63,851 bases of DNA from a virus (Duplodnaviria > Heunggongvirae > Uroviricota > Caudoviricetes). This document shows positions 1 through 22,673 of this stretch, one piece after another (the first letter of the stretch is position 1; every line of letters starts with the position of its first letter). The stretch lies in the IMG/VR virus record IMGVR_UViG_3300028805_000039, positions 1-63,851 of that record; one strand, written 5' to 3'. The notes beneath the pieces were generated by a model. That model searched no databases. It saw only the letters and a program-made list of their open reading frames with translations, and was not told where the DNA came from. The position numbers and the translations under genes are program-made.

Positions 1-173
1 CACCGATAACAAAAACAATTCCTGAATATAAAGTAACAATAGATAAAAATGTTAGTCTTGTTGAATTTTATGATAAATATACAGTTTTAGAACAAGATGG
101 TTTGATTTTCACTATCATAGATAAAGATTGGGAAAATAAGGACTATAATGAGGTTTTAAATAATAATGAATAA
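1..173 (+). CDS. small membrane protein, paralog family (C-terminal fragment; 5' end outside window)
   Basis: Open frame ending at TAA 171-173. Its translation (...FYDKYTVLEQDGLIFTIIDKDWENKDYNEVLNNNE) resembles the C-terminus of the next two genes (FYEKYDVIKQDGMIFTIRDKDYKERDYE). Confidence 0.5.
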   Translation, partial: PITKTIPEYKVTIDKNVSLVEFYDKYTVLEQDGLIFTIIDKDWENKDYNEVLNNNE

Positions 174-552
174 TGGACTTATTTTATTAAATACACAACA
201 AGCATTTGAACATATTAAATTTGATTGGTATTTTGCTGGGAAACCTCTTTCTTGGGTAGCGGTTATCGCTACAGCTATACTTGTTATTATTGGAGTAATT
301 TTGATTATTTATGGAATACATAATTATGATGATGATGCTCTAGCATTTGGAGTTGTTTTTACTATAGTAGCTATTGGTATTATGATATTTACACTTATCC
401 ATGAAGTTAATAAAACATATCCACAATATCAAGTAACAATTACTGAAAAAACTAATATGAAAGAATTTTATGAAAAATATGATGTTATAAAACAAGACGG
501 TATGATATTTACTATTAGAGATAAAGACTATAAGGAGCGAGATTATGAATAA
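166..552 (+). CDS. small membrane protein (one TM helix), paralog 2 of a tandem family
   Basis: 128-aa ORF from the track with a hydrophobic TM segment. Its start overlaps the upstream stop and its stop overlaps the next start (ATGA). Confidence 0.6.
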   Translation: MNNGLILLNTQQAFEHIKFDWYFAGKPLSWVAVIATAILVIIGVILIIYGIHNYDDDALAFGVVFTIVAIGIMIFTLIHEVNKTYPQYQVTITEKTNMKEFYEKYDVIKQDGMIFTIRDKDYKERDYE

Positions 553-913
553 TATCCCAGGAATTAATATAATTAATCAAACCAGTGAAATGGTTACTGT
601 TTATGGAACTTCTTATCATTTTAAAGAGAGTATATTATATTTAGTAATTGTTTTAATTTTAGTTATAGGAGGTATTTTTCTACTTGAAAAAATACCTAAA
701 TTTGTTCTATTAATTTTACCAATAATAATATGTCTTGGTGGTTTTCTAACCGCCCAAGGTATTATGGCAGGTTTTCAAAAAGAAGAAAAAGAAATAATTA
801 CTTATACTGTTACTATGGATAAAACTACTCCATATATTGATTTATTGGACTATGAATTAATCGAAATAAAAGATAATAATACATATATCTTTAAAACAAA
901 AATAAATCCATAA
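545..913 (+). CDS. small membrane protein (two TM segments), paralog 3 of a tandem family
   Basis: 122-aa ORF. The C-terminus (YTVTMDKTTPYIDLLDYELIEIKDNNTYIF) resembles the C-terminus of the 166-552 product. Confidence 0.6.
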   Translation: MNNIPGINIINQTSEMVTVYGTSYHFKESILYLVIVLILVIGGIFLLEKIPKFVLLILPIIICLGGFLTAQGIMAGFQKEEKEIITYTVTMDKTTPYIDLLDYELIEIKDNNTYIFKTKINP

Positions 914-937
914 GATATAAAATCTTGTGGATTTTTT
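903..937 (+). terminator. rho-independent terminator (stem AATCCA/TGGATT followed by T6)
   Basis: Inverted repeat followed by a T-run directly after the stop at 913. Confidence 0.5.
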
Positions 938-938
938 A

Positions 939-967
939 TTTGAAAATTTTAAAAAAATATTATATAA
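939..967 (+). promoter_or_regulatory. sigma70-like promoter TTGAAA-N17-TATAAT with an A7 tract in the spacer
   Basis: Exact 17-bp spacing. The same architecture recurs at least 12 times in the window. Confidence 0.6.
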
Positions 968-1021
968 TATATATGTAAGATAAAGAAAGGAATGATTTCC
1001 TATGTGCAGGTGTTTTAATTG

Positions 1022-1879
1022 ATGGATTATGCTGCTAAAAAATATATTGATAATTATAGAGATTGGTTTGTAAATGAAGATAAGTGTGGCTGGAAAGATA
1101 ACTTTATTATTGATGAAATAAAACGAGATAAACGACCAGATAAATGGGAAATTTATGCATCAAATTTAACAGGCGAACCTATTTATGATAATAATGGTAA
1201 TTTAATTAAAAAATCTAATAAAAAAAATAAAAAGGAGAATAATAATATGAATATGGATTTTGGTTTTGGAAAGATGTTTAATGGTATGTTTGCTCCCGTT
1301 GCTCATGGTTATGTTAAAATGGGTATGAACGGTGAAGTGGCTATTCGAGTTGGTAATGATTATAAAACCTTTGATATTAAGAGGATGAAACTTGTCAATT
1401 GTGATAATTTTGCTTTTGATATGGATGGTATGTTTTGGGTTGTTCCTACCTTTAAGGTTGAGTGCGGCGACATTATCATGGTAAATGGCAAGCCTCGTTG
1501 TGTAATTGAAGTTAAGGATAAGTCTATTAGAACTTTTTCTTATGAAAATTCTACTATTGATGAAATCATTCCTGAGCATCACGTTTTTATGGGTAAGACT
1601 TATTGTTATGGCAAAATTTTCAGTCCTTTTATGAATATGGATAAATCTGATAATATGATGTCTAATATGATGCAGATGGCTATGATGAGCCAGATGTTTG
1701 GCGGCAATAATTCTAATAATAATGTATTTATGGGAATGAATCCTATGGCAATGATGTTTATGATGAATAATAATAATGGTGGCAATATGTTTAGTGATAT
1801 GTTCGCCGGAGCTTTTAATTTTGGAGAAGATGAAACCAAGACTGATAAACTTGGTACTGCTGTTAAGGAGGATAAGTAA
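1022..1879 (+). CDS. hypothetical protein with a Met/Asn-rich low-complexity C-terminal region
   Basis: ORF 1019-1879 with a probable ATG at 1022 and an internal strong RBS/ATG at 1247. The C-terminus is roughly 25% Met (MMSNMMQMAMMSQMF...MNPMAMMFMM). Confidence 0.6.
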   Translation: MDYAAKKYIDNYRDWFVNEDKCGWKDNFIIDEIKRDKRPDKWEIYASNLTGEPIYDNNGNLIKKSNKKNKKENNNMNMDFGFGKMFNGMFAPVAHGYVKMGMNGEVAIRVGNDYKTFDIKRMKLVNCDNFAFDMDGMFWVVPTFKVECGDIIMVNGKPRCVIEVKDKSIRTFSYENSTIDEIIPEHHVFMGKTYCYGKIFSPFMNMDKSDNMMSNMMQMAMMSQMFGGNNSNNNVFMGMNPMAMMFMMNNNNGGNMFSDMFAGAFNFGEDETKTDKLGTAVKEDK

Positions 1880-1881
1880 AG

Positions 1882-2763
1882 ATGGGTGGAGGCAGTTGGA
1901 CTAGTTCGGCATATGATACTTATACCAAAAGTACGCGAGGAATGAGTGCGGCAGAATATACAACTGCCCACCTTTCTACTCAGGAAGTTTTTAAAGTTAA
2001 TGAACTTTCTCCTGTTCTTAATCCTTATAATGTTGTTAGAGCTTGTCATGATAGTGATGAGCATCCTAATACTCTTCCGGTTATTTTAGCCCTTGATGTA
2101 ACTGGTTCAATGGGCTCTGCGGCTCGTACTGTTAACCAGAAGTTAAATGAAATTATGACTAAAATTTATGAAAATCCCAATATGCCTGATGTAGAATTCT
2201 GTGTAATGGGTATTGGTGATTTAAGTTATGATGATGCTCCTATTCAAATGTCACAATTTGAAAGCGATATTCGTATCGCGGAGCAGAATGACCAGATTTA
2301 CTTTGAAGCAGGTGGCGGTGCAAATCGTTATGAAAGCTATACTGCTGCTTGGTATATGGGCTCTCGCCATTGTGATTTACATTGTTGGAATCGTGGTAAG
2401 AAAGGAATCATTATCACTCTTGGTGATGAATTGCCTAATCCATATCTTCCAAAGGGCATGCTTAATAAAGTAACTGGTGACCACTTACAGGCAGACGTCG
2501 AAACCCCTGAACTTTATAATGAAGTAATTGAGAAATTTAATGTATATCATATTGCTGTTAATGATCATCATAGTTCTTATATATATTATAAAGAAGATGG
2601 CATTGATAAAAAATGGAGCAAATTACTTGGAGATCATTATAGTGTAGAAACTATTAATAGTCTTCCTTTGAGAATTACTCAAATTATTGAGGAAAATATT
2701 GAGGGCAATACAGAAAATACCTCTGGTATTGTTTTTGATGAAAATAATGCTGTAAAATGGTAA
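1882..2763 (+). CDS. von Willebrand factor type A (vWA) domain protein
   Basis: A MIDAS-like DxTGS motif (ILALDVTGSMG) and a downstream ITLGDELPN motif typical of vWA folds. Confidence 0.7.
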   Translation: MGGGSWTSSAYDTYTKSTRGMSAAEYTTAHLSTQEVFKVNELSPVLNPYNVVRACHDSDEHPNTLPVILALDVTGSMGSAARTVNQKLNEIMTKIYENPNMPDVEFCVMGIGDLSYDDAPIQMSQFESDIRIAEQNDQIYFEAGGGANRYESYTAAWYMGSRHCDLHCWNRGKKGIIITLGDELPNPYLPKGMLNKVTGDHLQADVETPELYNEVIEKFNVYHIAVNDHHSSYIYYKEDGIDKKWSKLLGDHYSVETINSLPLRITQIIEENIEGNTENTSGIVFDENNAVKW

Positions 2764-2772
2764 AAATAAAAA

Positions 2773-2808
2773 ATAGCGGATTTCCAAAATTTGGAAATCC
2801 GCTATTTT
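2773..2808. terminator. bidirectional rho-independent terminator (AATAGCGGATTTCCAAA/TTTGGAAATCCGCTATT)
   Basis: Perfect 15-bp inverted repeat between the convergent genes 1882-2763(+) and 2810-3070(-), flanked by T/A runs. Confidence 0.7.
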
Positions 2809-2809
2809 C

Positions 2810-3070
2810 TTAACCATAAACATATGGTCCCCAATCACCTGGCACCCAATATGGGTCAACTGTTGGGGTTGGAGTTTGAATCGGCATAGGGGCTGGCTGA
2901 GCCTAAAACAACAAAGGCGGCTATGTCGGTATTGGAGTTTCAATAATTACAGGAGTAAAAGTTGTCACAGGAGGATCAATAACTGGTTCTCTAATATATA
3001 TATACCAATAAGCAGCAGCTCCTACTAAAATCACAAGGATAAGAATCGCAATAACTATATTTTTAAACAT
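2810..3070 (-). CDS. small signal-anchored proline-rich protein, two in-frame TAG (Gln) codons
   Basis: ATG at 3070 preceded by an AAGGG RBS. The product reads MFKNIVIAILILVILVGAAAYWYIY...PIPTQPPLLFQAQPAPMPIQTPTPT...GDWGPYVYG and ends at TAA 2810-2812. Continuous only if TAG is read as sense. Confidence 0.5.
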
Positions 3071-3143
3071 TACATTCACACCCTTTCTAATTAAATTTAA
3101 AAGTAAATATAACTTTTTTAATCTTATTTACCCAATCTTTTAT

Positions 3144-3172
3144 TTGAAAATATTAAAAAAATATTATATAAT
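3144..3172 (+). promoter_or_regulatory. sigma70-like promoter TTGAAA-N17(A7)-TATAAT
   Basis: Same consensus as 939-967. Confidence 0.6.
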
Positions 3173-3207
3173 ATTTATAGAAAATAAAGAAAAAGGAATT
3201 AATATTT

Positions 3208-3393
3208 ATGGAATGGAATGAAAAAATTAAAGAAGGAATGAAATTAATTGCCGCAGGATGTTTTGAAGAAGGTGGATTTGCCACTTGTCGAATGAGTAAA
3301 TGTCCTTTTGGAGATTATTGTTGGATTATCAAAAGAGAAAAAGAAGAATATGATAATGACTTAATGGAGCCTTTGTATTGGGATGAAATTTAA
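3208..3393 (+). CDS. small Cys-containing hypothetical protein
   Basis: 61-aa ORF downstream of a promoter and RBS. Confidence 0.5.
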   Translation: MEWNEKIKEGMKLIAAGCFEEGGFATCRMSKCPFGDYCWIIKREKEEYDNDLMEPLYWDEI

Positions 3394-3408
3394 AGGAGTT
3401 GATAGAAT

Positions 3409-4578
3409 ATGAAGAAAGTAAAAATTGTTGTTGGTGCCAATTATGGAGATGAAAGCAAAGGGCTGGTTACTCATCAGTTTTGTAAAGATGCTATACACAC
3501 TTATGATAATACTATTGTAATTTTTCATAATGGTTCTGCCCAGCGTGGGCATACCGTAGATTATAATCCTGATTTCCGCCATGTTTATCATCATTTTGGA
3601 TGCGGAACCGCAGAAGGCATTCCTACTTATTTCGCTGATACCTTTTGGGTTCATCCTATGGAATATTATCGAGAATATGGAGAACTTCTTCGTCAAAATA
3701 TTCATCCACCTATTACTCAATGTAGTCCAAAAGCAAAAGTAGTTACTCCATTTGATATGATTGTAGACCACGCAACAGAGGCTTATATTGGATGGCAGAA
3801 TGGAGAACGCGAGCATGGCTCTTGCGGTTATGGCACTTGGTGTGCTACTGATAGAGAATTTTTTGGACATAAAATCTATACCATAGAAGATTATCTTAAA
3901 GCAGAAAATAACACTAAACTTGGAGTAATGCTTCGTCTTACTTTTTATGATTGTTTAACATTATTGCAGAATATTCGTAATGTTGATTTAGATAAAATTC
4001 CTGAATATGCTGTGTATTTTAAAGATGAAACTCGTATTGATAATACAATTAATCATTTTATTGATGATTTAAAATTCTTTATATCACATAATGAGTTTTT
4101 TTCATTCGATAGTGTTTATTATATTTTTGATAATTTGATTTTTGAAGGAGCACAAGGTCTTGGCCTTGATAAAGATTGCGGAAAAGAATGGCACACTACT
4201 TCTTCTACTGGTTTGACAAATCCTTATAACATGTTAAAAGATAAAGATAATTTTAAAGCAGAAGTATGTTATGTCTCTCGTGCTTATAATACCCGACATG
4301 GAATTGGAGACCTTGAAGAAGAAACAACTAAATCTTCTATTAATAAAGATATGGAAGATAAAACTAATATTCATAATGAATTTCAAGGTAGTCTTCGTTA
4401 TGGATATATTGATGATGCTGAACGCGGAAAAAGAATTTCAAAAGATTATTCTATTGTTGAAAAAGATAATAGATTTTTTAGGACTGATGCTCTTACTCAT
4501 TGTAATGAATTTCCAGAAGTAAATCCTAAATTATATAATTATGCTAGTTTTAATCCATATAGTGTATTGAAAGGATAA
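3409..4578 (+). CDS. adenylosuccinate synthetase family protein (PurA/PurZ-like)
   Basis: N-terminal VVGANYGDESKG (PurA P-loop GDEGKGK-like) and NGSAQRGHTV (PurA GHT His motif). The 389-aa length is shorter than bacterial PurA, as is typical of phage PurZ. Confidence 0.6.
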   Translation: MKKVKIVVGANYGDESKGLVTHQFCKDAIHTYDNTIVIFHNGSAQRGHTVDYNPDFRHVYHHFGCGTAEGIPTYFADTFWVHPMEYYREYGELLRQNIHPPITQCSPKAKVVTPFDMIVDHATEAYIGWQNGEREHGSCGYGTWCATDREFFGHKIYTIEDYLKAENNTKLGVMLRLTFYDCLTLLQNIRNVDLDKIPEYAVYFKDETRIDNTINHFIDDLKFFISHNEFFSFDSVYYIFDNLIFEGAQGLGLDKDCGKEWHTTSSTGLTNPYNMLKDKDNFKAEVCYVSRAYNTRHGIGDLEEETTKSSINKDMEDKTNIHNEFQGSLRYGYIDDAERGKRISKDYSIVEKDNRFFRTDALTHCNEFPEVNPKLYNYASFNPYSVLKG

Positions 4579-4583
4579 ATTAC

Positions 4584-5243
4584 ATGACTAATTTTGTTAT
4601 GACTCGTTTTGGTGATGTTCTTTTTGGTCTTATTATTATTTTTAGTCTTTATAAATTTGGAATGACAATTTATCATTTAACATCATTTTATAACCATACA
4701 CATGGGCAAGCATATTTTACTAATGTAGGAACTACATTAAATTTTGAAGATCTGCCAAGACTTACTTTTAAACAATTTTTAAGTTTTTATAATATTAATC
4801 CTGAAAAATGGTTTATTATGCAAGGCACAAAATGGAACCATCATCCCACTAGAATTTATCAAAGCAGTGGGCAGCCCATTTGTTTTAAAACTGTTTTTGA
4901 TTATGTAAAATATATTAAATGGATTAAAAAGCAAGCTAAAAACAAAAAAGAAAAAGCCCGTGCTGAAAAACTTCAATCTATTGTTGATGATGTAAAAAAA
5001 GATATTAATAAAATTAATAAAGATTATGAAAATGTCCTTACTGAAAGCACTAAAACTTATTTACAAGTTGCTACTCGCCTTAAAGATGATATGAAATATT
5101 ATGTAGATATTAATGAAGTTAGTAGTATAGATACATCAAAATTATATAAAGGGGAACCTATATGTATCATTAATAGTTTGACTGGTAAAAGAAAATATTA
5201 TATTTGGGATGGAGAAAACTTTATCTTTGTTAAAATTTTTTAA
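4584..5243 (+). CDS. hypothetical protein
   Basis: 219-aa ORF with a hydrophobic N-terminus. Confidence 0.5.
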   Translation: MTNFVMTRFGDVLFGLIIIFSLYKFGMTIYHLTSFYNHTHGQAYFTNVGTTLNFEDLPRLTFKQFLSFYNINPEKWFIMQGTKWNHHPTRIYQSSGQPICFKTVFDYVKYIKWIKKQAKNKKEKARAEKLQSIVDDVKKDINKINKDYENVLTESTKTYLQVATRLKDDMKYYVDINEVSSIDTSKLYKGEPICIINSLTGKRKYYIWDGENFIFVKIF

Positions 5244-5246
5244 AAG

Positions 5247-5276
5247 GAATGGATATTAACCATTCCTTTTTTTAAT
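5247..5276 (+). terminator. rho-independent terminator (GGAATGG...CCATTCC + T7)
   Basis: Hairpin followed by a T-run immediately after the stop. Confidence 0.6.
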
Positions 5277-5291
5277 AAAAAGATTTTTTAT

Positions 5292-5320
5292 TTGAAAATT
5301 TATAAAAAATATTGTATAAT
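5292..5320 (+). promoter_or_regulatory. sigma70-like promoter TTGAAA-N17-TGtTATAAT (extended -10)
   Basis: Consensus match with 17-bp spacing. Confidence 0.6.
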
Positions 5321-5353
5321 ATTTATAGAAAATAAATAAAGGAGTTTTTATTT

Positions 5354-5539
5354 ATGTGGTATGCTTATAAACTTAATGACCAACAGGAATGGGTTAAAAT
5401 GAAAACTTTTGACAAACTTGAAGATTATAAAGCCTATGTTGAAACACATCGAGTAACTAATTCAATGTGCTCGAATAATGAAATTGATTTGCGCGGAAAG
5501 GCTTATAGCGAACGATGGGACAAAGCAGTAATGAATTAA
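5354..5539 (+). CDS. hypothetical protein
   Basis: 61-aa ORF. Confidence 0.5.
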   Translation: MWYAYKLNDQQEWVKMKTFDKLEDYKAYVETHRVTNSMCSNNEIDLRGKAYSERWDKAVMN

Positions 5540-5700
5540 TTCAAATAGAAATTGACCATGTCTTAAATAGCCAAAATGCGAATGAACAATTAAGGATTTT
5601 CTAGAAAGTTTTCCCAAAGCGTGAAATAATTGGAGTATCTATGGTGCCTGCTGATCCAGTAGGTTGGTTTATGACAATAACTTATAAAGTATTATACTAA
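5515..5700 (+). CDS. possible small protein (one TAG codon), GC-richer island
   Basis: The frame is open from 5488 to TAA 5698-5700 if TAG is read as sense. ATG candidates are 5515 or 5641 (the latter has a GGAG RBS). Overlaps the preceding gene. Confidence 0.25.
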
Positions 5701-5713
5701 GGAGTTGATAAAG

Positions 5714-6466
5714 ATGGCAGTTTATGCTTGCGCTGATTTGCATGGTTGTTACTGGGCATGGGAACAGATTAAGAATATTTTACAGCCAAATGATACATTA
5801 TATTTTTTAGGCGACGCAGCAGATAGAGGTCCTGATGGTTGGACTATTATGAAAGAATTATTGAACAATAGTCAAGTAATTTATTTAATTGGTAATCATG
5901 AACGAATGTTTCTTAATAATTGGGGAAGTTATGATGGACATGACCTTGAAAATTATCATCATTTAGATGATCATATTTGGAATTGGTATTGTAATGGTGG
6001 AGAAATTACCGATTCTCAATTTATTCAAGATTCTATCTCTGGCGAAGAAAAGGTTAGTTATATTAGACAATTAAATGACTTACCTTTTATAACAGTTTAT
6101 CATAATGAATTTAATGAAGACGTAGTTCTTTGCCATGCCGGATGTGACTATCATGATATTGATAAATTAACAGAAGAAGCAGCTATTTGGGACAGAACTC
6201 ATTATATATTTAATAAATGGGATGGCCCCAATAATGTTTATATTATTCATGGGCATACTCCTATTCCTCTACTTATCCAAGAGCAAGAAAAGTTTAACAG
6301 ATGGCATAGCCTTGGATATAGTATTCCAAAAGCCGAAGCACTTGAAGGAGCTTATTGGTATGCTGGCGGGCATAAGTGTTGTATTGATTGTGGGGCAGTA
6401 TTTACAGATCAAACAGTATTATTAAATCTTGATACATGGGAAGAAATTATAATTAATAAGGAGTAA
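5714..6466 (+). CDS. calcineurin-like metallophosphoesterase (Ser/Thr phosphatase / ApaH-like)
   Basis: Motifs ADLHG, GDAADRG and GNHE. AGGAG lies 9 nt before ATG 5714. Confidence 0.7.
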   Translation: MAVYACADLHGCYWAWEQIKNILQPNDTLYFLGDAADRGPDGWTIMKELLNNSQVIYLIGNHERMFLNNWGSYDGHDLENYHHLDDHIWNWYCNGGEITDSQFIQDSISGEEKVSYIRQLNDLPFITVYHNEFNEDVVLCHAGCDYHDIDKLTEEAAIWDRTHYIFNKWDGPNNVYIIHGHTPIPLLIQEQEKFNRWHSLGYSIPKAEALEGAYWYAGGHKCCIDCGAVFTDQTVLLNLDTWEEIIINKE

Positions 6467-6471
6467 AAATT

Positions 6472-6657
6472 ATGTGGGATCTTGTTGAAGAAATGTTGAA
6501 AACTATTGCTATTATACTTGGAATTGTACTTCTGTTTTGTTTTCCAGCTATGTGGCTTTGGAATTGGTTAATGCCATATATTTTTAATTTACCAACGTTA
6601 ACATTTGGACAGATGGGTGGCCTTTTGCTTTTAGCTTATTTATTTTTCCATGAATAA
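6472..6657 (+). CDS. small membrane protein
   Basis: 61 aa with two hydrophobic segments. Confidence 0.45.
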   Translation: MWDLVEEMLKTIAIILGIVLLFCFPAMWLWNWLMPYIFNLPTLTFGQMGGLLLLAYLFFHE

Positions 6658-6671
6658 GGAGGAACTATATA

Positions 6672-6941
6672 ATGAAAACTAAAAGAATGGATAGACATAG
6701 TTTTTATTGTATGAATTGTGGAGAAAAAGTTTATGAATTAATGAGACCGGTCAGCCATCAATATGGAAAACATCATCGTAAAGCATTATATTGTCCTTGG
6801 TGCAAGTTAACTGTTAATACGATAGAATGTCGTAATGACAATGAAGTTTATGAGTTTAAAGAAGCCTTCGCCGCCGGAGAATATAAAGAAGAATTAAAAG
6901 AATCTATTGATTTTATTAAAAATAATTATATGGAGTTGTGA
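6672..6941 (+). CDS. zinc-ribbon protein
   Basis: CMNCG...CPWC Cys pairs. Confidence 0.5.
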   Translation: MKTKRMDRHSFYCMNCGEKVYELMRPVSHQYGKHHRKALYCPWCKLTVNTIECRNDNEVYEFKEAFAAGEYKEELKESIDFIKNNYMEL

Positions 6942-6945
6942 TACT

Positions 6946-7646: not shown

Positions 7647-7805
7647 ACCAGAATCTTATACATTAAACTAGTTGCGGTGTGTTAATCAAATTTTAATGTA
7701 TGGTGCTAATACAACTCACCTTAAAGGATCTAATAATAGTTTTGGAATGGATGAAGGTTGGAAGGTAGATTATTTTCCAACTTCTTTTGTAAAGGATGAT
7801 AATGA

Positions 7806-11102: not shown

Positions 11103-11103
11103 G

Positions 11104-13966: not shown

Positions 13967-13975
13967 TTTTTATAT

Positions 13976-15941: not shown

Positions 15942-17842
15942 AAGATAAAACTTTATATACAGAAGAATCAATTGAATCATTATCTCCGCTTGAATTTACT
16001 CGTTTAAGACCAGGAGTATACGCAGGTGATACGACATATGCTACACAATTGGCTGTCGAAATTTTTTCTAATGCTGTTGATGAATTTCGTCTTGGACATG
16101 GAGATAAGATTGATGTAGATATTAAAGGGCCAAGAGTAAGAATACGAGATTATGGGCAAGGTTTTATTCCTAATAGTTTTCGTGATGATGGAAAAACAAT
16201 TCTTGAAGCAGCATTTAGTGTTTTAAATACTTCTGGTAAGTATCGTGAAGATGGTACTTATGAAGGTACTTCATTGGGTTCTTTTGGTATTGGTTCTAAA
16301 ATTACTACTTATCTTTCACATTGGTTAGAAGTATATACTTATAGAGATGGAGAATCAGAATTTTGTTCTTTCACAGAAGGCGTCTTTAATGAACGTAAAT
16401 CAGCTAAAGTAGATAGTTCTGTGCATGGAACTGATGTAACATGGGAACCTAGTGAAGAATTTTTTACACATCCAGAAGTAAATGTAAATGAATTAAAAAC
16501 TTTATTTAAGACAATAGCGGCTTTATGTCCTGGATTAACTATTAATTTAGATGATAATGGTAGTAAAACAACTTATTTCTCTAAAAACGGTATTAGTGAT
16601 TTAGTTGATGAAGCAGTTGAAGGAAAAGAATTAATTAAAAATCGTTTTGTTATGAATTATCAAAATGATAAAAATAAAATTGATATGGTTATGACATATA
16701 CATCTAACTATTCAATGAATTTAATTCCTTATGTTAATACAGGTTTAACAGCAAATGGACCACATATTTCACAGATTAAATCTCTTTTAACTCGTGAATT
16801 TAATAAATTTTTCCGTGATAAAAAATGGTTAAAGGAAAAAGAAGAAAATCTTTCTGGTGAAGATATACAAGAAGGACTTTATATTGTATTTAATATTACC
16901 GCTCCAAATGTAGCATATGATGCTCAGGTAAAGACAAGAGTCACTAAATTAGAAATGATTCCTTTCACTTCGGCAATCGCAGAAGAACTTCGTATCTGGT
17001 TCACAGCAAATGAAAAAGATATTAAAATGATTGCTGATAAAGCGTTAGGGGCAAGAAAAGCAAGATTAGCCGCACAAAAAGCAAGAGATAATGCTCGTGA
17101 AGGCCAAAAGAAAAAGGAAAAAGCTTTAAAATTTGATAGTAAATTAGCTGATTGTTATAGTAAAGATCGCAAAAAGTGCGAAATTTATATTACAGAGGGC
17201 GATAGTGCGAGTGGTAAATTAAAAGAAGCCAGAGACAATGAATTTCAAGCAATTATGCCAGTCCGAGGCAAAATTTTAAATACTCAAAAAGCAACCATTG
17301 ATAAAATACAGAAAAATGCTGAAATTATGTCAATGATTCAAGCTTTTGGTCTTGAAATTGATTTAAAAACAATGAAAGTGACATATCATCCAGATAAAAT
17401 TCGATATGGGAAAATTATTATTATGAGTGATGCTGATGTTGATGGTGCTCATATTAAAAATTTGTTTTATACTTTTATTTGGAATTTCTGCCCTCAATTA
17501 ATTCAAGATGGTTATATCTATGCTGGTGTCCCGCCACTTTATAAAGTTACAATGGCTAAAAAATATTATTATTTAAAGAATGATAATGCTTTAGAAGAAT
17601 TTCGTAAGAAAAATGCTGGTAAGAATTACATTGTAAATCGTATGAAAGGTTTGGGCGAAATGGATGCTGAAGAAGTTGAAGAAACTTTAATTAGCCCAGA
17701 AGGTAGAATTATTCGTCAAGTTACTGTAAATGATATTCCAACTACTAATAAATTATTTGATGATTTAATGGGCACAGCTGTAGTTCCACGTAAATTGTAT
17801 ATTAAAGAACATAGTAAAGAGGCTACTTATAATGCAGAATAA
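15929..17842 (+). CDS. type II DNA topoisomerase, ATPase/TOPRIM subunit (GyrB / T4 gp39-like)
   Basis: GHKL ATPase N-terminus, TOPRIM motifs (EGDSASG, IMSDADVDGAHI). No TAG codons. Confidence 0.8.
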   Translation: MGNIKDKTLYTEESIESLSPLEFTRLRPGVYAGDTTYATQLAVEIFSNAVDEFRLGHGDKIDVDIKGPRVRIRDYGQGFIPNSFRDDGKTILEAAFSVLNTSGKYREDGTYEGTSLGSFGIGSKITTYLSHWLEVYTYRDGESEFCSFTEGVFNERKSAKVDSSVHGTDVTWEPSEEFFTHPEVNVNELKTLFKTIAALCPGLTINLDDNGSKTTYFSKNGISDLVDEAVEGKELIKNRFVMNYQNDKNKIDMVMTYTSNYSMNLIPYVNTGLTANGPHISQIKSLLTREFNKFFRDKKWLKEKEENLSGEDIQEGLYIVFNITAPNVAYDAQVKTRVTKLEMIPFTSAIAEELRIWFTANEKDIKMIADKALGARKARLAAQKARDNAREGQKKKEKALKFDSKLADCYSKDRKKCEIYITEGDSASGKLKEARDNEFQAIMPVRGKILNTQKATIDKIQKNAEIMSMIQAFGLEIDLKTMKVTYHPDKIRYGKIIIMSDADVDGAHIKNLFYTFIWNFCPQLIQDGYIYAGVPPLYKVTMAKKYYYLKNDNALEEFRKKNAGKNYIVNRMKGLGEMDAEEVEETLISPEGRIIRQVTVNDIPTTNKLFDDLMGTAVVPRKLYIKEHSKEATYNAE

Positions 17843-18011
17843 TAATCCTTATGAATATGCTGAATTAAGAGAAGAAATTCATTATATTTTGAATGATTTT
17901 TTTAAATATGAATATGAACTTTTTAAAAATGGTGAATTTGATCATGAATTTTTAGAAGTATCTACAGATAATATTTTAAGATTAATTAGACGTCAAGGAG
18001 GACAAGTATAA
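17832..18011 (+). CDS. small hypothetical protein
   Basis: 59 aa. ATG overlaps the gyrB-like stop and its own stop overlaps the next ATG. Confidence 0.4.
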   Translation: MQNNNPYEYAELREEIHYILNDFFKYEYELFKNGEFDHEFLEVSTDNILRLIRRQGGQV

Positions 18012-20368
18012 TGATAAGTGATATACAATTTAATGATTTAACTCAAGAATTAGGTGTAAATTTTATTGAATATGCAGTTGCTGTTAATACTGATCGTGCT
18101 ATCCCTGACGCTAAAAGTGGTTTAAAACCAGTAGCAAGAAGAATCATTTATGATGCTTATGTAACTGGTTGTACTAATAATAAACCGCATGTAAAATGTG
18201 CGGCAATTGTTGGAGATACGATGGGCCGTTTCCATCCTCATGGCGACAGCTCAATTTATGGAGCTTTAATTAGGATGTCTCAACCATGGTCTTTACGTTA
18301 TCCATTAATAGATTTTCATGGTAATAATGGTAGCAGAGATGGCGATCCTCCAGCCCACTATCGTTATACAGAAGCAAGATTAGCAAAAATAACAGAAGAT
18401 GGCATGCTTGGTGGAATGAAAAAAAAGGTAGTTGATTTTATTCCTAACTATTCAGAATCAGAAGACGAACCAGCTACTTTACCATCCATTTTCCCAAATT
18501 TACTTTGTAATCCAAATACTGGTATTGGAGTAGCTATTGCTTGCAACTGGGCCCCGCATAATTTAAATGAAGTAGCACAAGCTATTAATGATTATATAGA
18601 TGGAAAAGAGCCAATGTTGCCTGGACCGGATTTTCCAACTGGTGGAATAATAATTAATAAAGATGATGTTCCTAATATTATGAGGACTGGCCGTGGCAGT
18701 GTAAAAGTCCGTGGAAAATATCATATGGAAGATAATAATATTATTTTTACAGAAGTGCCATATGGTGTTATTACAGAGCCTTTACTTGAATCTATTGGTG
18801 AATTATGTGATAGCGGAGAGATTCAAGGTATTACAAATATTCGTAATGAAAGTAATAGAAAAAAAGGTTATAGATTAGTTTTTGAATGTGCGAAAGATGC
18901 TAATATTTCTAAAATTATAATGTTACTTTTCCAAAAAACTGATTTACAATCTTCATTTTCTTATAATCAAGTCGCTTTAATAGATAAGACTCCTGTAGAA
19001 TTAAATCTTAAAGATTGTTGTAAGATTTATGTTGAGCATAATACAGAATGCATCCGTAAAGAATTAACATTTGATCTCCAGAAAGCGAAAGATAGATTAA
19101 ATATTGTAAATGGTCTATTAAAGGCATTAGAAGATATTGATAATATTATTACTTTAATCAAAGCATCTGAAAGTAGTGCTAAAGCTCGTGAAAAATTAAT
19201 TGAGAAATATAACTTTAATGAAGAACAAGCTAAAGCAATTACTGATATGAAACTTGGTAAATTAGCTGGATTAGAAAGAATAGAAATTGAGAATGAGCAA
19301 GTTGAATTAAAGGACACCATTGAGAAACTTAATGTTATTCTTAATGATTTAATTGGTGAGTTAAAAAGAAGATTATCTGATATTGTTAAAAAGTATGGTG
19401 ATTCTCGTCGTACTGAGTTAACTCAAATTAATGAATCTAAGAGTAAGGAAGAAAAAGAAATTGCTCTCATTCCACCAGAAAAATGTGTTGTTGTAATGAC
19501 TGAAAGTGGTAGCTTAAAGCGTATTCCAGCAACTTCATTTAAGGCACAACGTAGAGGCGGAAAAGGCGTTAAAACACAAGAAGATATAACATCTGCGGTT
19601 ATTCGTACTAATACAGTTGATAGTTTAATGATTTTTTCTAACAAAGGTAAAATGTACCGTTTAGTAGTAAATAATATTCCAGAAGGAACTAATACTTCAA
19701 AAGGAACTCCGGCAAGGGCTTTAGTTGAAATGGAAACTGGTGAAGATGTTGCTACTATTTATTCTATTTATCGTGATACAGATGCTAAATATGTTTTATT
19801 TGTCACTAAAAATGGTCTTGTTAAAAAGACAGCACTAAGTGAGTATGTTGGGACTAAAAAATCTAAAGGCATTGGTGCTATAAATATCAAAGAAGGCGAT
19901 GAATTAGCAGTGGTTACACTGGTTAAAGATGAACCTCTTCTTATTGTCAGCAAAAATGGTTATGTAATTAGATTTAATAGTGCTGAAATCAGTGCTACTG
20001 GTAGACTTACTGCTGGAGTTAAGGGTATCAATCTTGGAGAAGATGATTATGTAGTCGCTGCTTTGCCAATTCGTCATACTGAAGATGATTTAGCTGTATT
20101 TTCTAGTAAAGGCTATGGTAAAAAAGTTAAGTTAAATGATATCCCAACTCAAAAACGTGGCGGCAAAGGTATAATTATTTATAAGCCAAATGATATTTAT
20201 GGTAATGCTAGTTGTGGTCAATTGATTAGTGATGAAGATATGGTATTATTAATTGGCAATAAAAATTCTGTATGTCTGTCAGCAAAAGATATTCCAGAAA
20301 TGGGGAGAACGGCTTATGGAAATATAATGTTAAAAAATAACTTTATTTTAGATGTGAGTAAAGTATAA
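18011..20368 (+). CDS. type II DNA topoisomerase, DNA-cleavage subunit (GyrA / T4 gp52-like)
   Basis: 785 aa with GyrA-like N-terminal winged-helix region and catalytic Tyr context. No TAG codons. Confidence 0.8.
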   Translation: MISDIQFNDLTQELGVNFIEYAVAVNTDRAIPDAKSGLKPVARRIIYDAYVTGCTNNKPHVKCAAIVGDTMGRFHPHGDSSIYGALIRMSQPWSLRYPLIDFHGNNGSRDGDPPAHYRYTEARLAKITEDGMLGGMKKKVVDFIPNYSESEDEPATLPSIFPNLLCNPNTGIGVAIACNWAPHNLNEVAQAINDYIDGKEPMLPGPDFPTGGIIINKDDVPNIMRTGRGSVKVRGKYHMEDNNIIFTEVPYGVITEPLLESIGELCDSGEIQGITNIRNESNRKKGYRLVFECAKDANISKIIMLLFQKTDLQSSFSYNQVALIDKTPVELNLKDCCKIYVEHNTECIRKELTFDLQKAKDRLNIVNGLLKALEDIDNIITLIKASESSAKAREKLIEKYNFNEEQAKAITDMKLGKLAGLERIEIENEQVELKDTIEKLNVILNDLIGELKRRLSDIVKKYGDSRRTELTQINESKSKEEKEIALIPPEKCVVVMTESGSLKRIPATSFKAQRRGGKGVKTQEDITSAVIRTNTVDSLMIFSNKGKMYRLVVNNIPEGTNTSKGTPARALVEMETGEDVATIYSIYRDTDAKYVLFVTKNGLVKKTALSEYVGTKKSKGIGAINIKEGDELAVVTLVKDEPLLIVSKNGYVIRFNSAEISATGRLTAGVKGINLGEDDYVVAALPIRHTEDDLAVFSSKGYGKKVKLNDIPTQKRGGKGIIIYKPNDIYGNASCGQLISDEDMVLLIGNKNSVCLSAKDIPEMGRTAYGNIMLKNNFILDVSKV

Positions 20369-20406
20369 TGGAAATTAAAGAATTTAAATTAGTAGAAATG
20401 AGTTCC

Positions 20407-20432
20407 TATAGCCCTGATTAGGGCTATAGGAA
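20407..20432 (+). repeat. perfect 10-bp stem hairpin (CCTATAGCCC-TGATTA-GGGCTATAGG)
   Basis: GC-rich palindrome after the topoisomerase gene with no T-run following. Confidence 0.5.
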
Positions 20433-20500
20433 ATGGTATGAGTTTCAACCACAATACGATAATAAAACAGTTTATATTAATTTAGGAGAAATAAATAAAA

Positions 20501-20698
20501 ATGCTGGCAGAGCAGATAACACTTAATCATATTCAACATTATTATTGTCAAATAGAAGCTATTGATAGAATTTTAGAACAATATGATTTTACTTGGCATG
20601 ATTTATGGGCAGTATTAGAAAATGCTAAACCATTTTTTAATCATGGTGGTCATCTTTTAAATATTTATAATAATAAGGAATTAAATCAAAATGAATAA
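20501..20698 (+). CDS. hypothetical protein
   Basis: 65-aa ORF ending in TAA. Confidence 0.4.
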   Translation: MLAEQITLNHIQHYYCQIEAIDRILEQYDFTWHDLWAVLENAKPFFNHGGHLLNIYNNKELNQNE

Positions 20699-20708
20699 AC
20701 TTGATTAG

Positions 20709-22673
20709 ATGCGAGAATTAATTGATAAATTAAATTATTATATTAAAATGTATGATGAAGGAACTCCTGTAATTTCTGATAAAGAATATGATGATTTATA
20801 TTTTCAATTGGAAGAATTAGAAAATCAGTCTGGTATTTGTATGGCAAATTCTCCAACTTGTCATGTAGACTATTTTTCATTGAATAAATTAAAAAAAGTA
20901 AAACATTCTCATCCAATGTTATCATTGAATAAAACTAAATCTATTCAAGATATTTTAGATTTTAAAAATGATAAAGATGTTATTGCTATGTTGAAAATGG
21001 ATGGATTAACCTGTTCTCTTCGATATGAACAAGGAGTACTGGTTAGTGCTGAGACTCGTGGCAACGGCGAAATAGGAGAAGATATTACTCATAATATTAT
21101 TACAGTTAAATGTGTCCCAATAGAAATTCCATTTAAAAATACATTAGTTGTTGATGGAGAAGTTATTTGTACCTATAAAGATTTTGAACCATTTAGTGAT
21201 AAATTTGCCAATCCACGTAATTTTGCAGCTGGTAGTATTAGATTATTAAATAATGGAGAATGTGCTAACCGACATTTAACATTCATAGTTTGGGATGTTA
21301 TTCAAGGATTTGAAGATTGTAAAACATTAACTGAAAAATTATATAAAATTGATAGTTTAGGTTTTACTTTTGTCCCACATTTACATTGGTTTCCTGATAT
21401 GGAAGTTTCAGAGGGTAAATTTGATCATATTTCAAGACTTATTACTGATTGGGCTACAGGAGAAGATTTCCAATATCCATATGATGGATTAGTGTTTAAA
21501 TATAATGATTGTAATTATTATTCTTCTCTTGGAGAAACTGGTCATCATCCAAAAGGTGGATTAGCATTTAAGTTTTATGATGAAGAATATGAAACTAGAT
21601 TATTCAATATTGAATATACCATGGGTAAAACTGGAATTTTAACTCCAGTAGCAGAATTTGAACCAGTACATACTGATGATAGTACTATTGAGAAAGCTTC
21701 ACTTCATAATTTAAATATTATGAAATCACTTCTCGGCAATAATCCTTATCAAGGTCAGCATATTATTGTAGTTAAAATGAATCAAATTATCCCACAAATA
21801 GTTCGAGCAGATACAACTTTCCCACTTGTGCCAGTTGAATTTTTTAGATTGCCTCAAGTATGCCCAATTTGTGGAGAACCTACTATTATTAAAGATGATT
21901 TTCTTTATTGTAGTAATCCTAATTGTGAAGGTAAATTAATTAATAAATTAGATCATTTTGTAGGGAAAAAAGGTCTTGACATTAAAGGTTTGTCAAAGGC
22001 AACACTTCAAAAATTAATTAATTGGGAATGGGTTAATTCTATTTCTGATATTTTTGGATTATATCAATATCGTGATGAATGGTATAAAAAAGATGGTTTT
22101 GGAGTTAAATCTGTTGATAATATTCTTGAAGCTATAGAAAATAGTAAAGAATGCGAGCTATGGCAATTTATTTCTGCCCTTAGTATTCCATTAATTGGTA
22201 GTACATATGCCAAAGATATCGCTAGACATTGTGCTGGGTGGCTCCAGTTTATGGAATGTATTGGCCCTCATATGCTAAATAAAAATGGGTATAATTTCAC
22301 TCAATGGGATGGCTTTGGCCCAAATATGGATGCTTCATTACATAATTTTAATTACGATGAAGCAGATCAAATTGTAAATAAATATTTACATTTGAGGAAT
22401 ACTTTATTTACTATTCCAAAAGATGTTCAAATTATTAATTCTAATATAAATGGAATTAATTTCGTAATTACAGGAAAATTAAAAAAATATAAAAATCGTG
22501 ATGAATTAATTAATATTATTGAAAATAATGGTGGAAAAGTATTAAATTCTGTTACTAAAAATACTAATTATTTAATTAATAATGATATTAATAGTACATC
22601 ATCTAAAAATGTAAAAGCTAAAAGTCTTAGTATTCCGATTATTACAGAAGAACAATTTGACGCTTTACTTTGA
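20709..22673 (+). CDS. ligA: NAD-dependent DNA ligase (LigA) with C-terminal BRCT
   Basis: KMDGLTCSLRYE (KxDG adenylation motif), OB and Zn-finger regions, BRCT at the C-terminus. No TAG codons. Confidence 0.85.
   Translation: MRELIDKLNYYIKMYDEGTPVISDKEYDDLYFQLEELENQSGICMANSPTCHVDYFSLNKLKKVKHSHPMLSLNKTKSIQDILDFKNDKDVIAMLKMDGLTCSLRYEQGVLVSAETRGNGEIGEDITHNIITVKCVPIEIPFKNTLVVDGEVICTYKDFEPFSDKFANPRNFAAGSIRLLNNGECANRHLTFIVWDVIQGFEDCKTLTEKLYKIDSLGFTFVPHLHWFPDMEVSEGKFDHISRLITDWATGEDFQYPYDGLVFKYNDCNYYSSLGETGHHPKGGLAFKFYDEEYETRLFNIEYTMGKTGILTPVAEFEPVHTDDSTIEKASLHNLNIMKSLLGNNPYQGQHIIVVKMNQIIPQIVRADTTFPLVPVEFFRLPQVCPICGEPTIIKDDFLYCSNPNCEGKLINKLDHFVGKKGLDIKGLSKATLQKLINWEWVNSISDIFGLYQYRDEWYKKDGFGVKSVDNILEAIENSKECELWQFISALSIPLIGSTYAKDIARHCAGWLQFMECIGPHMLNKNGYNFTQWDGFGPNMDASLHNFNYDEADQIVNKYLHLRNTLFTIPKDVQIINSNINGINFVITGKLKKYKNRDELINIIENNGGKVLNSVTKNTNYLINNDINSTSSKNVKAKSLSIPIITEEQFDALL

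What the first reader, a model, noticed from the sequence alone, without database searches (positions are those of the whole stretch)
1..22673. TAG codons are distributed in blocks: TAG-free early (1-8715) and topoisomerase/ligase (14092-22673) modules versus TAG-laden remainder
All complete ORFs in 1-8715 and in the RNase H / topoisomerase II / ligase block (about 8.6 kb, roughly 2860 codons) contain zero TAG. Neighbouring replication genes (dnaB 12, dnaE 7, recJ 11, nrdD 10) and all tail genes are rich in TAG. This fits a temporal programme in which TAG-free genes are translated before the suppressor system is established. It also marks which genes can function in an unmodified host.
Basis: seen in the sequence. 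Interest (0 to 1): 0.6.

Follow-up and report, generated by a model that had tools for sequence, protein, structure and literature searches.

The report
Stop-codon-free gene blocks in recoded phage
This is part of a roughly 150-kb phage that reads the TAG stop codon as glutamine in most genes but keeps its early genes and its gyrase and ligase genes almost free of TAG, a block-wise two-code layout already described for other gut phages.

Summary
The pattern is real. With TAG read through, ORF coverage rises from 60% to 91%, and TAG aligns with Gln in PhoH and NrdD motifs and in family alignments.

- **TAG-free sets.** Twelve genes in 1-8715 (2313 codons) and RNase H, an unnamed 94-aa ORF, GyrB, GyrA and LigA (2318 codons) have no in-frame TAG. 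The rest has 13 per 1000 codons (P about 1e-11 and 4e-9 with overdispersion allowed).
- **Exceptions.** Block B also holds two small ORFs with three TAGs. LigA probably has a TAG at codon 6, directly before a second ATG.
- **Between the blocks.** The genes there are PhoH and a lysis cassette, whose endolysin carries 16 TAGs. They are not replication genes.
- **Boundaries.** Block edges coincide with terminator and sigma-A-like promoter pairs. Block A alone uses a near-identical promoter class and extends about 16 kb upstream to a strand-switch junction.
- **Relatives.** In 12 TAG-recoded relatives, TAG makes up 0 of 195 Gln-type codons in GyrA, against 11-38% in four neighbouring genes. Synteny and codon usage exclude recent transfer.

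Best reading: genes that must be translated before, or without, an amber suppressor. Timing is untested, and no suppressor tRNA lies in the window. Borges et al. and the Mgcod study already describe this. Interest is modest.

The parts
1..8715 (+). Block A, the window part of an early block of about 25 kb that is essentially free of TAG. It holds 12 ORFs of at least 72 aa (2313 codons, 0 TAG) plus small ORFs. Annotated products: a PurA/PurZ-family protein (3409-4578), an AAA_33 kinase-like protein (6946-7431) and two metallophosphatases (5714-6466 and 7806-8378).
   Evidence: Upstream extension in L001 and L055.
940..968 (+). Class-1 early promoter: TTGAAA, a conserved 17-nt spacer ATTTTAAAAAAATATTA, then TATAAT. 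It follows the terminator at 904-934.
3144..3172 (+). Class-1 early promoter, upstream of 3208-5243.
5292..5320 (+). Class-1 early promoter, upstream of 5354-8715. It follows the hairpin with T-run at 5244-5273.
9075..9131 (+). Boundary between block A and the TAG-rich unit: terminator-like hairpin 9075-9118 overlapping a class-2 promoter at 9103-9131 (TTGACT, 17 nt, TATAAT).
9165..13915 (+). TAG-rich unit between the two TAG-free blocks. Genes: an unknown 141-aa protein (2 TAG), PIN-PhoH (9876-11102, 7 TAG), the terminator at 11101-11126, a five-domain endolysin (11157-13604, 16 TAG, the first at codon 35), and a small protein with two hydrophobic segments, a holin candidate (13601-13915, 1 TAG).
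   Evidence: The lysis cassette sits at the same syntenic position in relatives.
13927..14003 (+). Boundary between the lysis unit and block B: terminator-like hairpin 13927-13965, then a perfect-consensus promoter at 13975-14003 (TTGACA, 17 nt, TATAAT).
14092..14822 (+). RNase H (148 aa) and a 94-aa ORF, both TAG-free.
14824..14852 (+). Class-2 promoter with an extended -10 element (TTGACT, 17 nt, TGATATAAT), upstream of the Zn-ribbon ORF and the gyrase and ligase genes.
14886..15941 (+). Exceptions inside block B. The Zn-ribbon ORF 14886-15218 has TAG at codons 40 and 108. The ORF 15219-15941 has one TAG at 15588-15590; it may instead be two ORFs under the standard code. This second ORF appears absent from the closest relative.
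15929..17842 (+). GyrB-type topoisomerase subunit, 637 codons, 0 TAG.
18011..20368 (+). GyrA-type topoisomerase subunit with a C-terminal beta-propeller domain, 785 codons, 0 TAG. It also has 0 TAG in all 48 related loci (36,160 codons).
20691..22673 (+). NAD-dependent DNA ligase LigA. It is TAG-free from the ATG at 20709. The probable ancestral start at 20691 adds MNKLD-TAG directly before that ATG.
22670..22949 (+). Boundary between block B and the TAG-containing genes: class-2 promoters at 22670-22698 and 22921-22949, flanking a 64-aa ORF with 2 TAG.
23003..50223 (+). TAG-containing units on the plus strand. With TAG counts: a GIY-YIG protein (13), AAA_24 (3), DnaB (9), primase (1), RecJ (8), an SF1 helicase (1), DnaE (6), Gmk (4), NrdD (9), NrdG (3), a permease (2), a repeat-rich 887-aa protein (9) and a radical-SAM protein (6). 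The HTH gene 24831-25196 and the ORF 29710-29928 are TAG-free.
50250..63726 (-). Five large TAG-rich genes on the minus strand (3 to 27 TAG each), presumed to be virion or tail genes. No family match confirmed a function.

Best explanation
The window comes from a phage of about 150 kb that probably infects a Firmicute and uses genetic code 15 (TAG = Gln) for most of its genes. A defined subset of genes is kept dual-coded, meaning they have no in-frame TAG and no TAG terminator, so they give the same protein whether or not TAG is suppressed. The subset is an early block of about 25 kb (its last 8.7 kb is in the window), the gyrase subunits, and to a lesser degree the ligase, RNase H and an HTH regulator.

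The proposed sequence of events is as follows.
1. After injection, host sigma-A RNA polymerase transcribes units carrying consensus-like promoters.
2. Host RF1 still terminates at TAG, so only the TAG-free ORFs give full-length protein.
3. A phage amber-suppressor tRNA of the tRNA-Gln type accumulates. The TAG-bearing genes then become translatable: most replication genes, the lysis cassette that sits among the early units, and the virion genes.

The gating acts gene by gene within transcription units, not region by region.

**Shown:** the TAG = Gln recoding, the non-random TAG-free sets, the coincidence of block edges with terminator and promoter pairs, the separate promoter class of block A, and the conservation of TAG avoidance in relatives.

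**Inferred:** the order of translation, the role of RF1, the host's code, and the presence of a suppressor tRNA in this particular genome.
For: - **Recoding.** ORF coverage is 60% under the standard code and 91% with TAG read through.
- **TAG reads as Gln.** TAG aligns with the invariant Gln of the PhoH motifs DEAQN and TQVD, and with Gln at NrdD position 214 in two of three solved structures. At the window's TAG positions, relatives have Gln in 37% of cases (CAA 206, CAG 151, TAG 53), followed by Glu, Asp and Lys.
- **Non-randomness.**
- **Block edges.** They fall at 9075-9131, 13927-14003 and 22670-22698, each a terminator and promoter pair.
- **Promoters.** Twelve TTGAnn-17-TAnAAT sites all lie on the plus strand, eleven of them in intergenic DNA and one overlapping the LigA stop codon, against 3.4 expected on both strands. 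Nine near-identical class-1 promoters occur only in the TAG-free early block. That block begins at a divergent junction in L055.
- **No TAG terminators.** None of 40 early genes ends in TAG.
- **Conserved avoidance.** TAG as a share of Gln-type codons in 12 recoded relatives is 0 of 195 in GyrA, 2 of 143 in GyrB, 5 of 152 in LigA and 1 of 32 in the HTH gene. It is 24 of 81 in PhoH, 108 of 282 in the GIY-YIG protein, 26 of 161 in AAA_24 and 19 of 166 in DnaB.
- **Control for conservation.** At positions that are Gln in both the window and L033, TAG takes 0 of 53 in block B and 37 of 105 elsewhere (Fisher 4e-8).
- **Gene-level pattern.** Inserted or small ORFs inside the block carry TAG while gyrB and gyrA do not.
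- **Light recoding.** In L028, a lightly recoded relative, most of the few TAGs in 20 kb are in the endolysin and one other gene; three small ORFs carry one each.
- **Suppressor in a relative.** L083 carries a tRNA(CUA) with a tRNA-Gln-like acceptor end and its own TTGACT-17-TGATAAAAT promoter.
- **Literature.** The same model is published for other recoded phages.
Against: - There are no expression or proteomic data for this phage.
- No suppressor tRNA was found in the window, the 10 kb upstream of it on the source contig (L001), or the roughly 28 kb of the close relative's contig that was fetched (L055 and L088).
- Promoter class does not separate block B from its TAG-rich neighbours.
- The core replication proteins DnaB, primase and DnaE carry TAG. 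Why gyrase and ligase in particular should be needed earlier is not explained.
- LigA has 3 TAG in the closest relative, and RNase H has 1-3 TAG in three relatives.
- TAG density falls with protein conservation (Spearman -0.50, p = 0.025). Part of the contrast could therefore be passive.
Confidence: 0.62

Rival explanations
1. Passive effect of purifying selection. TAG arises mostly at fast-evolving positions, so slowly evolving proteins such as gyrase simply gain few TAG codons, with no selection linked to timing.
For: Block B proteins are the most conserved between the window and L033 (83-95% identity, against 45-86% for the neighbours). TAG density correlates negatively with identity (Spearman -0.50, p = 0.025). 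Many TAG positions are variable: 20 go from TAG to a non-Gln codon and 31 go the other way.
Against: At positions that are Gln in both genomes, TAG takes 35% outside block B and 0 of 53 inside it. GyrA has 37 CAG codons across the recoded relatives, each one transition from TAG, yet no TAG. NrdD, DnaE and PhoH are well conserved and carry 9, 6 and 7 TAG. Block A is poorly conserved and is still TAG-free.
Confidence: 0.1
2. The TAG-free genes serve a non-lytic state such as lysogeny, a plasmid-like carrier state or pseudolysogeny, in which the suppressor is off. Under this reading the code partitions life-cycle arms and not early versus late times in a lytic infection.
For: Borges et al. describe recoded prophages in which integrase and lysogeny genes avoid the recoded stop codon. 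The TAG-free set includes DNA-maintenance enzymes (gyrase, ligase, RNase H) and an HTH regulator.
Against: The window shows no integrase, partition or repressor module. Block A has the layout of a lytic early region, with tandem strong promoters and many small ORFs. The rest of the genome was not available.
Confidence: 0.1
3. The TAG-free blocks were acquired recently from standard-code bacteria or phages and have not yet accumulated TAG.
For: GyrB, GyrA and LigA are bacterial-type enzymes. Block A has slightly unusual codon usage (distance 0.54 against a null 95th percentile of 0.49) and a higher CAG share.
Against: The order PhoH, lysis genes, RNase H, GyrB, GyrA, LigA through to DnaB and primase is conserved in recoded and standard-code relatives at 53-94% GyrA identity. 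Codon usage in block B cannot be told apart from the rest (0.33 against a null of 0.36 +/- 0.07). The best matches to GenBank phages are only about 40% identical.
Confidence: 0.04
4. Avoidance driven by efficiency. Suppression is incomplete, so genes that need reliable full-length product avoid TAG regardless of timing.
For: The TAG-free genes in block B are long enzymes, which would lose much product if each TAG were only partly suppressed (inference).
Against: The longest and presumably most highly expressed late proteins are the richest in TAG (27 TAG in 1041 codons and 16 in 1496). DnaE (about 1300 aa) and NrdD also carry TAG.
Confidence: 0.06

Closest known systems
Alternatively coded (stop-codon-recoded) gut phages of Borges et al. 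(bioRxiv 10.1101/2021.08.26.457843): the Lak, Garnet, Amethyst, Agate, Jade, Sapphire, Topaz and crAss-like clades
   Same: In-frame recoded stop codons occur in only part of the genes. Structural and lysis genes are heavily recoded, early genes are compatible with the standard code, and replication genes are variably recoded. The authors' model is a switch from the standard code to the alternative code during infection. They also propose that lysis genes are kept silent by in-frame stops.
   Different: In this window the TAG-free and TAG-rich sets alternate four times on one strand. The lysis cassette lies between two TAG-free sets and behind a host-type promoter. Among the replication genes, gyrase specifically stays exempt across the family. 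I did not test membership of any named clade.
Dual-coded blocks described with the Mgcod tool (bioRxiv 10.1101/2022.06.29.495998)
   Same: [quoted passage not shown]
   Different: Mgcod reports that the code switch usually follows a switch of coding strand, and that the Sup-CTA tRNA sits at the 5' end of the code-15 strand. Here only the start of the early block, seen in L055, coincides with a strand switch. The three switches inside the window lie on one strand at boundaries between transcription units. No Sup-CTA tRNA is nearby.
TAG-recoded crAss-like phages, with code 15 confirmed by metaproteomics (Peters et al., PMC9523058)
   Same: TAG is reassigned to Gln in phages that infect hosts using the standard code (abstract seen).
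   Different: The lineage is unrelated. The window's DnaE is about 40% identical to those of Enterococcus phages and SPbeta-like Bacillus phages. I saw no crAss-type genes.
phAss-1 and the proposed genus Phassvirus (PMC10607447)
   Same: A large phage genome (136 kb) with TAG in only a subset of ORFs (41) and with suppressor tRNA genes.
   Different: No sequence relationship appeared. A megablast search of the window gave no match, and phAss-1 was not among the top listed protein matches.

Membership tests
Code-15 (TAG = Gln) recoded phage | Reading TAG through restores long ORFs and a normal coding density. | tested here: met
   ORFs of at least 100 aa cover 60% of the window under the standard code and 91% with TAG as sense. 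Reading TGA through gives only 64%.
Code-15 (TAG = Gln) recoded phage | In-frame TAG aligns with glutamine in homologues. | tested here: met
   The PhoH motifs DEAQN and TQVD, and NrdD position 214, which is Gln in two of three solved structures. Relatives have Gln at 37% of the window's TAG positions, the commonest residue by far.
Code-15 (TAG = Gln) recoded phage | The phage encodes a suppressor tRNA with anticodon CUA. | tested here: inconclusive
   None in the window, L001, L055 or L088. One is present in the related contig L083, with a tRNA-Gln-like acceptor end and its own promoter. About 60 kb of the 152-kb source contig could not be read.
Code-15 (TAG = Gln) recoded phage | TAG is not used as a terminator. 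| tested here: met
   All curated genes end in TAA or TGA. None of the TAG-free genes has TAG as its first stop.
Block-wise dual coding (Mgcod; Borges et al.) | A contiguous set of genes without the recoded codon, enriched in early functions, with structural and lysis genes recoded. | tested here: met
Block-wise dual coding (Mgcod; Borges et al.) | The code switch coincides with a switch of coding strand. | tested here: not met
   The three switches in the window (near 9.1, 14.0 and 22.7 kb) are all on the plus strand. Only the upstream start of the early block, seen in L055, lies at a strand switch. This is a common feature of such phages but not a strict one.
Block-wise dual coding (Mgcod; Borges et al.) | The host uses the standard genetic code. 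| not testable with these tools
   The host is unknown. Sigma-A-like promoters and DnaE similarity to phages of Firmicutes are only hints.
Temporal (early versus late) translational gating by code switch | TAG-free genes are translated before TAG-containing genes during infection. | not testable with these tools
   This needs time-course RNA-seq, ribosome profiling or proteomics on an isolate.
Horizontally acquired island | Atypical codon usage, and absence from or a different position in relatives. | tested here: not met
   Codon usage in block B matches the rest of the genome. Synteny is conserved across relatives.

The most novel reading that the evidence does not exclude
TAG content, not promoter class, would set the order of expression among units transcribed by host RNA polymerase. 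Within a single operon, TAG-free ORFs (gyrase, ligase) would be made at once, and co-transcribed TAG-bearing ORFs only after the suppressor appears. A lysis cassette placed among early units behind a consensus-like sigma-A promoter would be kept silent solely by its 17 in-frame TAGs. Some ORFs might yield a short form early and a long form late. Candidates are the Zn-ribbon ORF, which has a TAG right after the ribbon, and LigA, with its TAG-ATG junction. The family-wide exemption of gyrase would mark supercoiling or repair of the incoming DNA as the first task that depends on a phage-made enzyme.
Probability: 0.25. Interest if true: 0.55.

Novelty: new member of a known kind. Interest (0 to 1): 0.3.

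Why it matters
The finding adds a previously undescribed family of phages of 130-180 kb to the recoded phages. The contigs come from metagenomes. The family holds TAG-recoded members, members that use the standard code in the regions I could see, and members that appear TGA-recoded.

It offers a clear case in which code blocks can be mapped to single transcription units and single genes. The conserved exemption of gyrase, and the heavily recoded lysis cassette embedded in the early region, are specific and testable predictions for the published code-switch model.

In practice, annotation of these contigs needs code 15. Standard gene callers would fragment about a third of the coding sequence.

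Tried and rejected
- **Megablast of 1-24000 against GenBank phages:** no match.
- **Exact-protein look-ups:** GyrA is not on record.
- **Search for the suppressor tRNA:**
  - ARAGORN on the window and about 70 loci.
  - Rfam on the window, L001, L006 and L083.
  - A scan of the viral collection with the anticodon stem-loop of the L083 suppressor. It returned four contigs, three of them unrelated to this phage.
- **Total sigma-70-like matches:** not above shuffled expectation in this AT-rich DNA. Only the best matches, judged by position and orientation, are informative.
- **PHROG search:** no family for four of the five large minus-strand proteins; the fifth was not submitted. The label 'tail genes' is therefore unconfirmed.
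- **N-terminal skew of TAG positions:** weak (mean relative position 0.455, KS p = 0.01), so I do not rely on it.
- **Rejected explanations:** chance, composition (off-frame TAG is present at near-normal density) and recent horizontal transfer of block B.

Full report
**1. What the sequence is**

The window has 29% G+C and no tRNA gene. ORFs of at least 100 aa cover 60% of it under the standard code and 91% when TAG is read through. Reading TGA through gives 64%. TAG is therefore a sense codon.

TAG stands for glutamine:
- In PhoH, two TAGs fall on the invariant Gln of DEAQN and TQVD.
- In NrdD, one TAG falls on a position that is Gln in two of three solved structures.
- At the window's TAG positions, related phages most often have Gln: CAA 206, CAG 151 and TAG 53 out of about 1100 aligned codons, followed by Glu, Asp and Lys.

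The window is 99.9% identical to part of a 151,968-bp metagenome contig (ENA ERZ27256871, k141_563452). It has no close relative among GenBank phages. Its DnaE is about 40% identical to those of Enterococcus phages and SPbeta-like Bacillus phages.

**2. Gene content**

| Region | Strand | Content |
|---|---|---|
| 166-8715 | + | Small and mostly unknown ORFs, a PurA/PurZ-family protein, a kinase-like protein, two metallophosphatases |
| 9165-13915 | + | Unknown 141-aa protein, PIN-PhoH, five-domain 815-aa endolysin, small protein with two hydrophobic segments |
| 14092-22673 | + | RNase H, 94-aa ORF, Zn-ribbon ORF, 240-aa ORF, GyrB, GyrA, 65-aa ORF, NAD-dependent LigA |
| 23003-50223 | + | GIY-YIG protein, HTH protein, AAA_24, DnaB, primase, RecJ, SF1 helicase, DnaE, Gmk, NrdD, NrdG, deoxyribosyltransferase, permease, repeat-rich 887-aa protein, radical-SAM protein, Cys-rich protein |
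| 50250-63726 | - | Five large proteins with no family match |

**3. The observation**

In a curated set of 54 genes (19,072 codons, 192 in-frame TAG), the 12 genes of block A (2313 codons) have no TAG. RNase H, the 94-aa ORF, GyrB, GyrA and LigA (2318 codons) also have none. The remaining 35 genes have 13.3 TAG per 1000 codons.

- Poisson P is about 4e-14 for each block.
- With overdispersion fitted (negative binomial, k = 5.6), P is 1e-11 for block A and 4e-9 for block B. A permutation test on the run of 12 consecutive TAG-free genes gives p = 2e-5.
- Off-frame TAG is about as frequent in the blocks as elsewhere, and CAA+CAG density is the same everywhere (22-27 per 1000). The effect is specific to in-frame TAG.

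- Block B contains two small ORFs with three TAGs.
- LigA orthologues start six codons earlier (MNKLDEM...). In the window that codon 6 is TAG, followed directly by the ATG at 20709.
- Two doubtful small ORFs in block A would each hold one TAG.
- DnaB, DnaE, RecJ and NrdD have 9, 6, 8 and 9 TAG.
- The genes between the blocks are PhoH and a lysis cassette, not replication genes.

**4. Transcription units**

Twelve sites of the form TTGAnn, 17 nt, TAnAAT all lie on the plus strand. Eleven are in intergenic DNA and one overlaps the LigA stop codon. Only 3.4 such sites would be expected on both strands together. Hairpins with T-runs precede several of them.

The three changes of code state fall exactly on such pairs:
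- 9075-9131, between block A and the lysis unit.
- 13927-14003, between the lysis unit and block B, with a perfect TTGACA/TATAAT promoter.
- 22670-22698, between block B and the rest.

The promoters fall into two kinds:
- **Class 1:** TTGAAA, an almost invariant spacer ATTTTAAAAAAATATTA, TATAAT, then a conserved downstream stretch. It occurs at 940, 3144 and 5292 and six more times upstream in L001 and L055, always in the TAG-free early block. Weaker TTGATT variants stand at 24766 and 27426.
- **Class 2:** TTGACn with a variable spacer. It precedes both TAG-free units (13975, 14824) and TAG-rich units (9103, 22670, 22921, 33470, 35395).

Promoter class therefore separates block A but not block B.

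**5. Extent of the early block**

On the source contig (L001), the 10 kb upstream of the window hold 25 small genes with 5 TAG in 2941 codons. Three of those five lie at codon 3 or 6 and probably precede the true start.

In the close relative L055, the plus-strand TAG-free genes begin at a class-1 promoter directly beside minus-strand, TAG-bearing genes. The block is thus about 25 kb long and starts at a divergent junction. None of its 40 genes ends in TAG. They avoid TAG in both of its possible meanings, which is what the Mgcod authors call dual coding.

**6. Relatives**

A search with GyrA found 49 loci in IMG/VR. Some lie on contigs of 130-183 kb, and GyrA identity ranges from 32 to 99%. 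Twelve loci are clearly TAG-recoded around gyrA. Others use the standard code locally. Some relatives found with the tail gene look TGA-recoded.

Gene order is conserved: PhoH, lysis genes, RNase H, GyrB, GyrA, LigA, and on through DnaB to primase. Codon usage in block B cannot be distinguished from the rest. Recent transfer is excluded.

TAG as a share of Gln-type codons across the 12 recoded relatives:

| Gene | TAG / Gln-type codons |
|---|---|
| GyrA | 0 / 195 (37 are CAG) |
| GyrB | 2 / 143 |
| LigA | 5 / 152 |
| HTH gene | 1 / 32 |
| PhoH | 24 / 81 |
| GIY-YIG protein | 108 / 282 |
| AAA_24 | 26 / 161 |
| DnaB | 19 / 166 |

Across all 48 loci with a GyrA match, GyrA has 0 TAG in 36,160 codons.

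TAG positions turn over quickly. Only 20 of 57 window TAGs are also TAG in L033. Lack of time therefore cannot explain the absence in gyrase.

Block B proteins are more conserved than their neighbours, and TAG density falls with conservation (Spearman -0.50). Yet at positions that are Gln in both genomes, TAG takes 0 of 53 in block B and 37 of 105 elsewhere (Fisher 4e-8).

Avoidance is specific to genes:
- In L013, TAG-bearing ORFs sit between RNase H, GyrB and GyrA.
- In L006, an insertion in gyrA carries a LAGLIDADG ORF with a TAG.
- In the window, the Zn-ribbon ORF upstream of gyrB has two TAGs.
- In the lightly recoded L028, most of the few TAGs in 20 kb are in the endolysin and one other gene; three small ORFs carry one each. 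This fits the published view that lysis genes are recoded first.

**7. Suppressor**

I found no tRNA in the window, in the 10 kb upstream of it on the source contig, or in the fetched stretches of the L055 contig. I could not reach the rest of the source contig.

A relative, L083, which is the contig that also holds L012, has a tRNA with anticodon CUA at the head of a tRNA array. Its acceptor end resembles that of tRNA-Gln (my reading of the sequence). It has its own TTGACT-17-TGATAAAAT promoter. It lies about 7 kb upstream of the lysis cassette.

**8. Interpretation**

The best reading is the published code-switch model. Dual-coded genes are translated by the unmodified host machinery. TAG-bearing genes wait for the suppressor.

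What this window adds is resolution:
- Code states alternate four times on one strand, at boundaries between transcription units.
- The early block has its own promoter class.
- The lysis cassette sits among units driven by host-type promoters and carries 17 TAGs.
- Gyrase is the one replication function that stays exempt across the family.

The timing itself, the host's code and the suppressor of this genome remain inferred. The rivals are passive conservation, a non-lytic state, transfer and efficiency. Each is weighed in its own section, and none fits as well.

**9. Verdict**

The interpretation matches an established model, and comparative evidence partly supports it. This is a new member of a known kind and of modest interest.

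Noticed in passing
window 3409-4578: An adenylosuccinate-synthetase homologue in the early block. It matches PHROG 1211, labelled '2-aminooxy adenylosuccinate synthetase' (a PurZ-type label), at E = 5e-36. It scores only 20.6 bits against the NCBIfam PurZ model, whose cut-off is 300. The N-terminal motif reads GDESKG. Together with phosphatases, a kinase-like protein, Gmk and a deoxyribosyltransferase elsewhere in the window, it hints at modified nucleotide metabolism, possibly a 2-aminoadenine genome.
   Followed up: partly
L006 about 905-1830 (equivalent to window about 18240, inside gyrA): A contig 96-97% identical to the window has an insertion of about 910 nt in gyrA, right after the conserved HPHG. 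The insertion encodes a LAGLIDADG-type ORF that contains one in-frame TAG. L018 and L041 also show longer gyrA matches. Rfam gave no group I intron match at the gathering threshold.
   Followed up: partly
L072, L075 (also L059-L061, L064, L065): Some relatives look TGA-recoded and not TAG-recoded. ORF coverage is 0.93-1.0 with TGA read through, against 0.65-0.82 under the standard code. The wider family seems to hold TAG-recoded, TGA-recoded and standard-code members.
   Followed up: no
window 940, 3144, 5292; L001 3736, 6372; L055 2570, 5630, 12412, 14982: Nine early promoters share about 55 nt almost base for base. The shared stretch includes the 17-nt spacer and about 25 nt downstream of the -10 element. 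That is unusual for sigma-70-type promoters. It suggests either a bound factor or recent spread of a promoter cassette.
   Followed up: partly
window 11157-13604: An 815-aa endolysin that combines five Pfam domains: Phage_lysozyme2, Amidase_2, PG_binding_1, ELLD and SH3_3. It has 16 in-frame TAGs. No promoter lies between it and the terminator-like hairpin at 11101-11126.
   Followed up: no
window 20691-20711: The LigA start region reads ATG AAT AAA CTT GAT TAG ATG. Orthologues have Glu where the window has TAG. A stop followed directly by a start could allow reinitiation under the standard code, and a protein six residues longer under code 15.
   Followed up: partly
window 14886-15218: The Zn-ribbon ORF has a TAG at codon 40, immediately after the CxxC...CxxC ribbon, and another at codon 108 of 110. 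A 39-aa form and a 110-aa form are both conceivable.
   Followed up: no
window 50250-51764 (- strand): A 504-codon ORF at only 16.8% G+C with 14 TAGs. It encodes a protein rich in Asn, Tyr and Lys, with no family match.
   Followed up: no
window 48225-50223: A radical-SAM protein (415 aa) is followed by a 247-aa protein with a very Cys-rich C-terminus. The pairing resembles a maturase and its substrate.
   Followed up: no
L001 1-10000 (upstream of the window): The early block also encodes an RNA ligase, a Thg1-like protein (a family of enzymes that add nucleotides to the 5' end of tRNA), and Band_7, YAcAr and metallophosphatase proteins. These could bear on tRNA repair or maturation.
   Followed up: no
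window 44273-45511: A xanthine/uracil permease family gene (Pfam E = 7e-50) encoded by the phage, with 2 TAGs.
   Followed up: no
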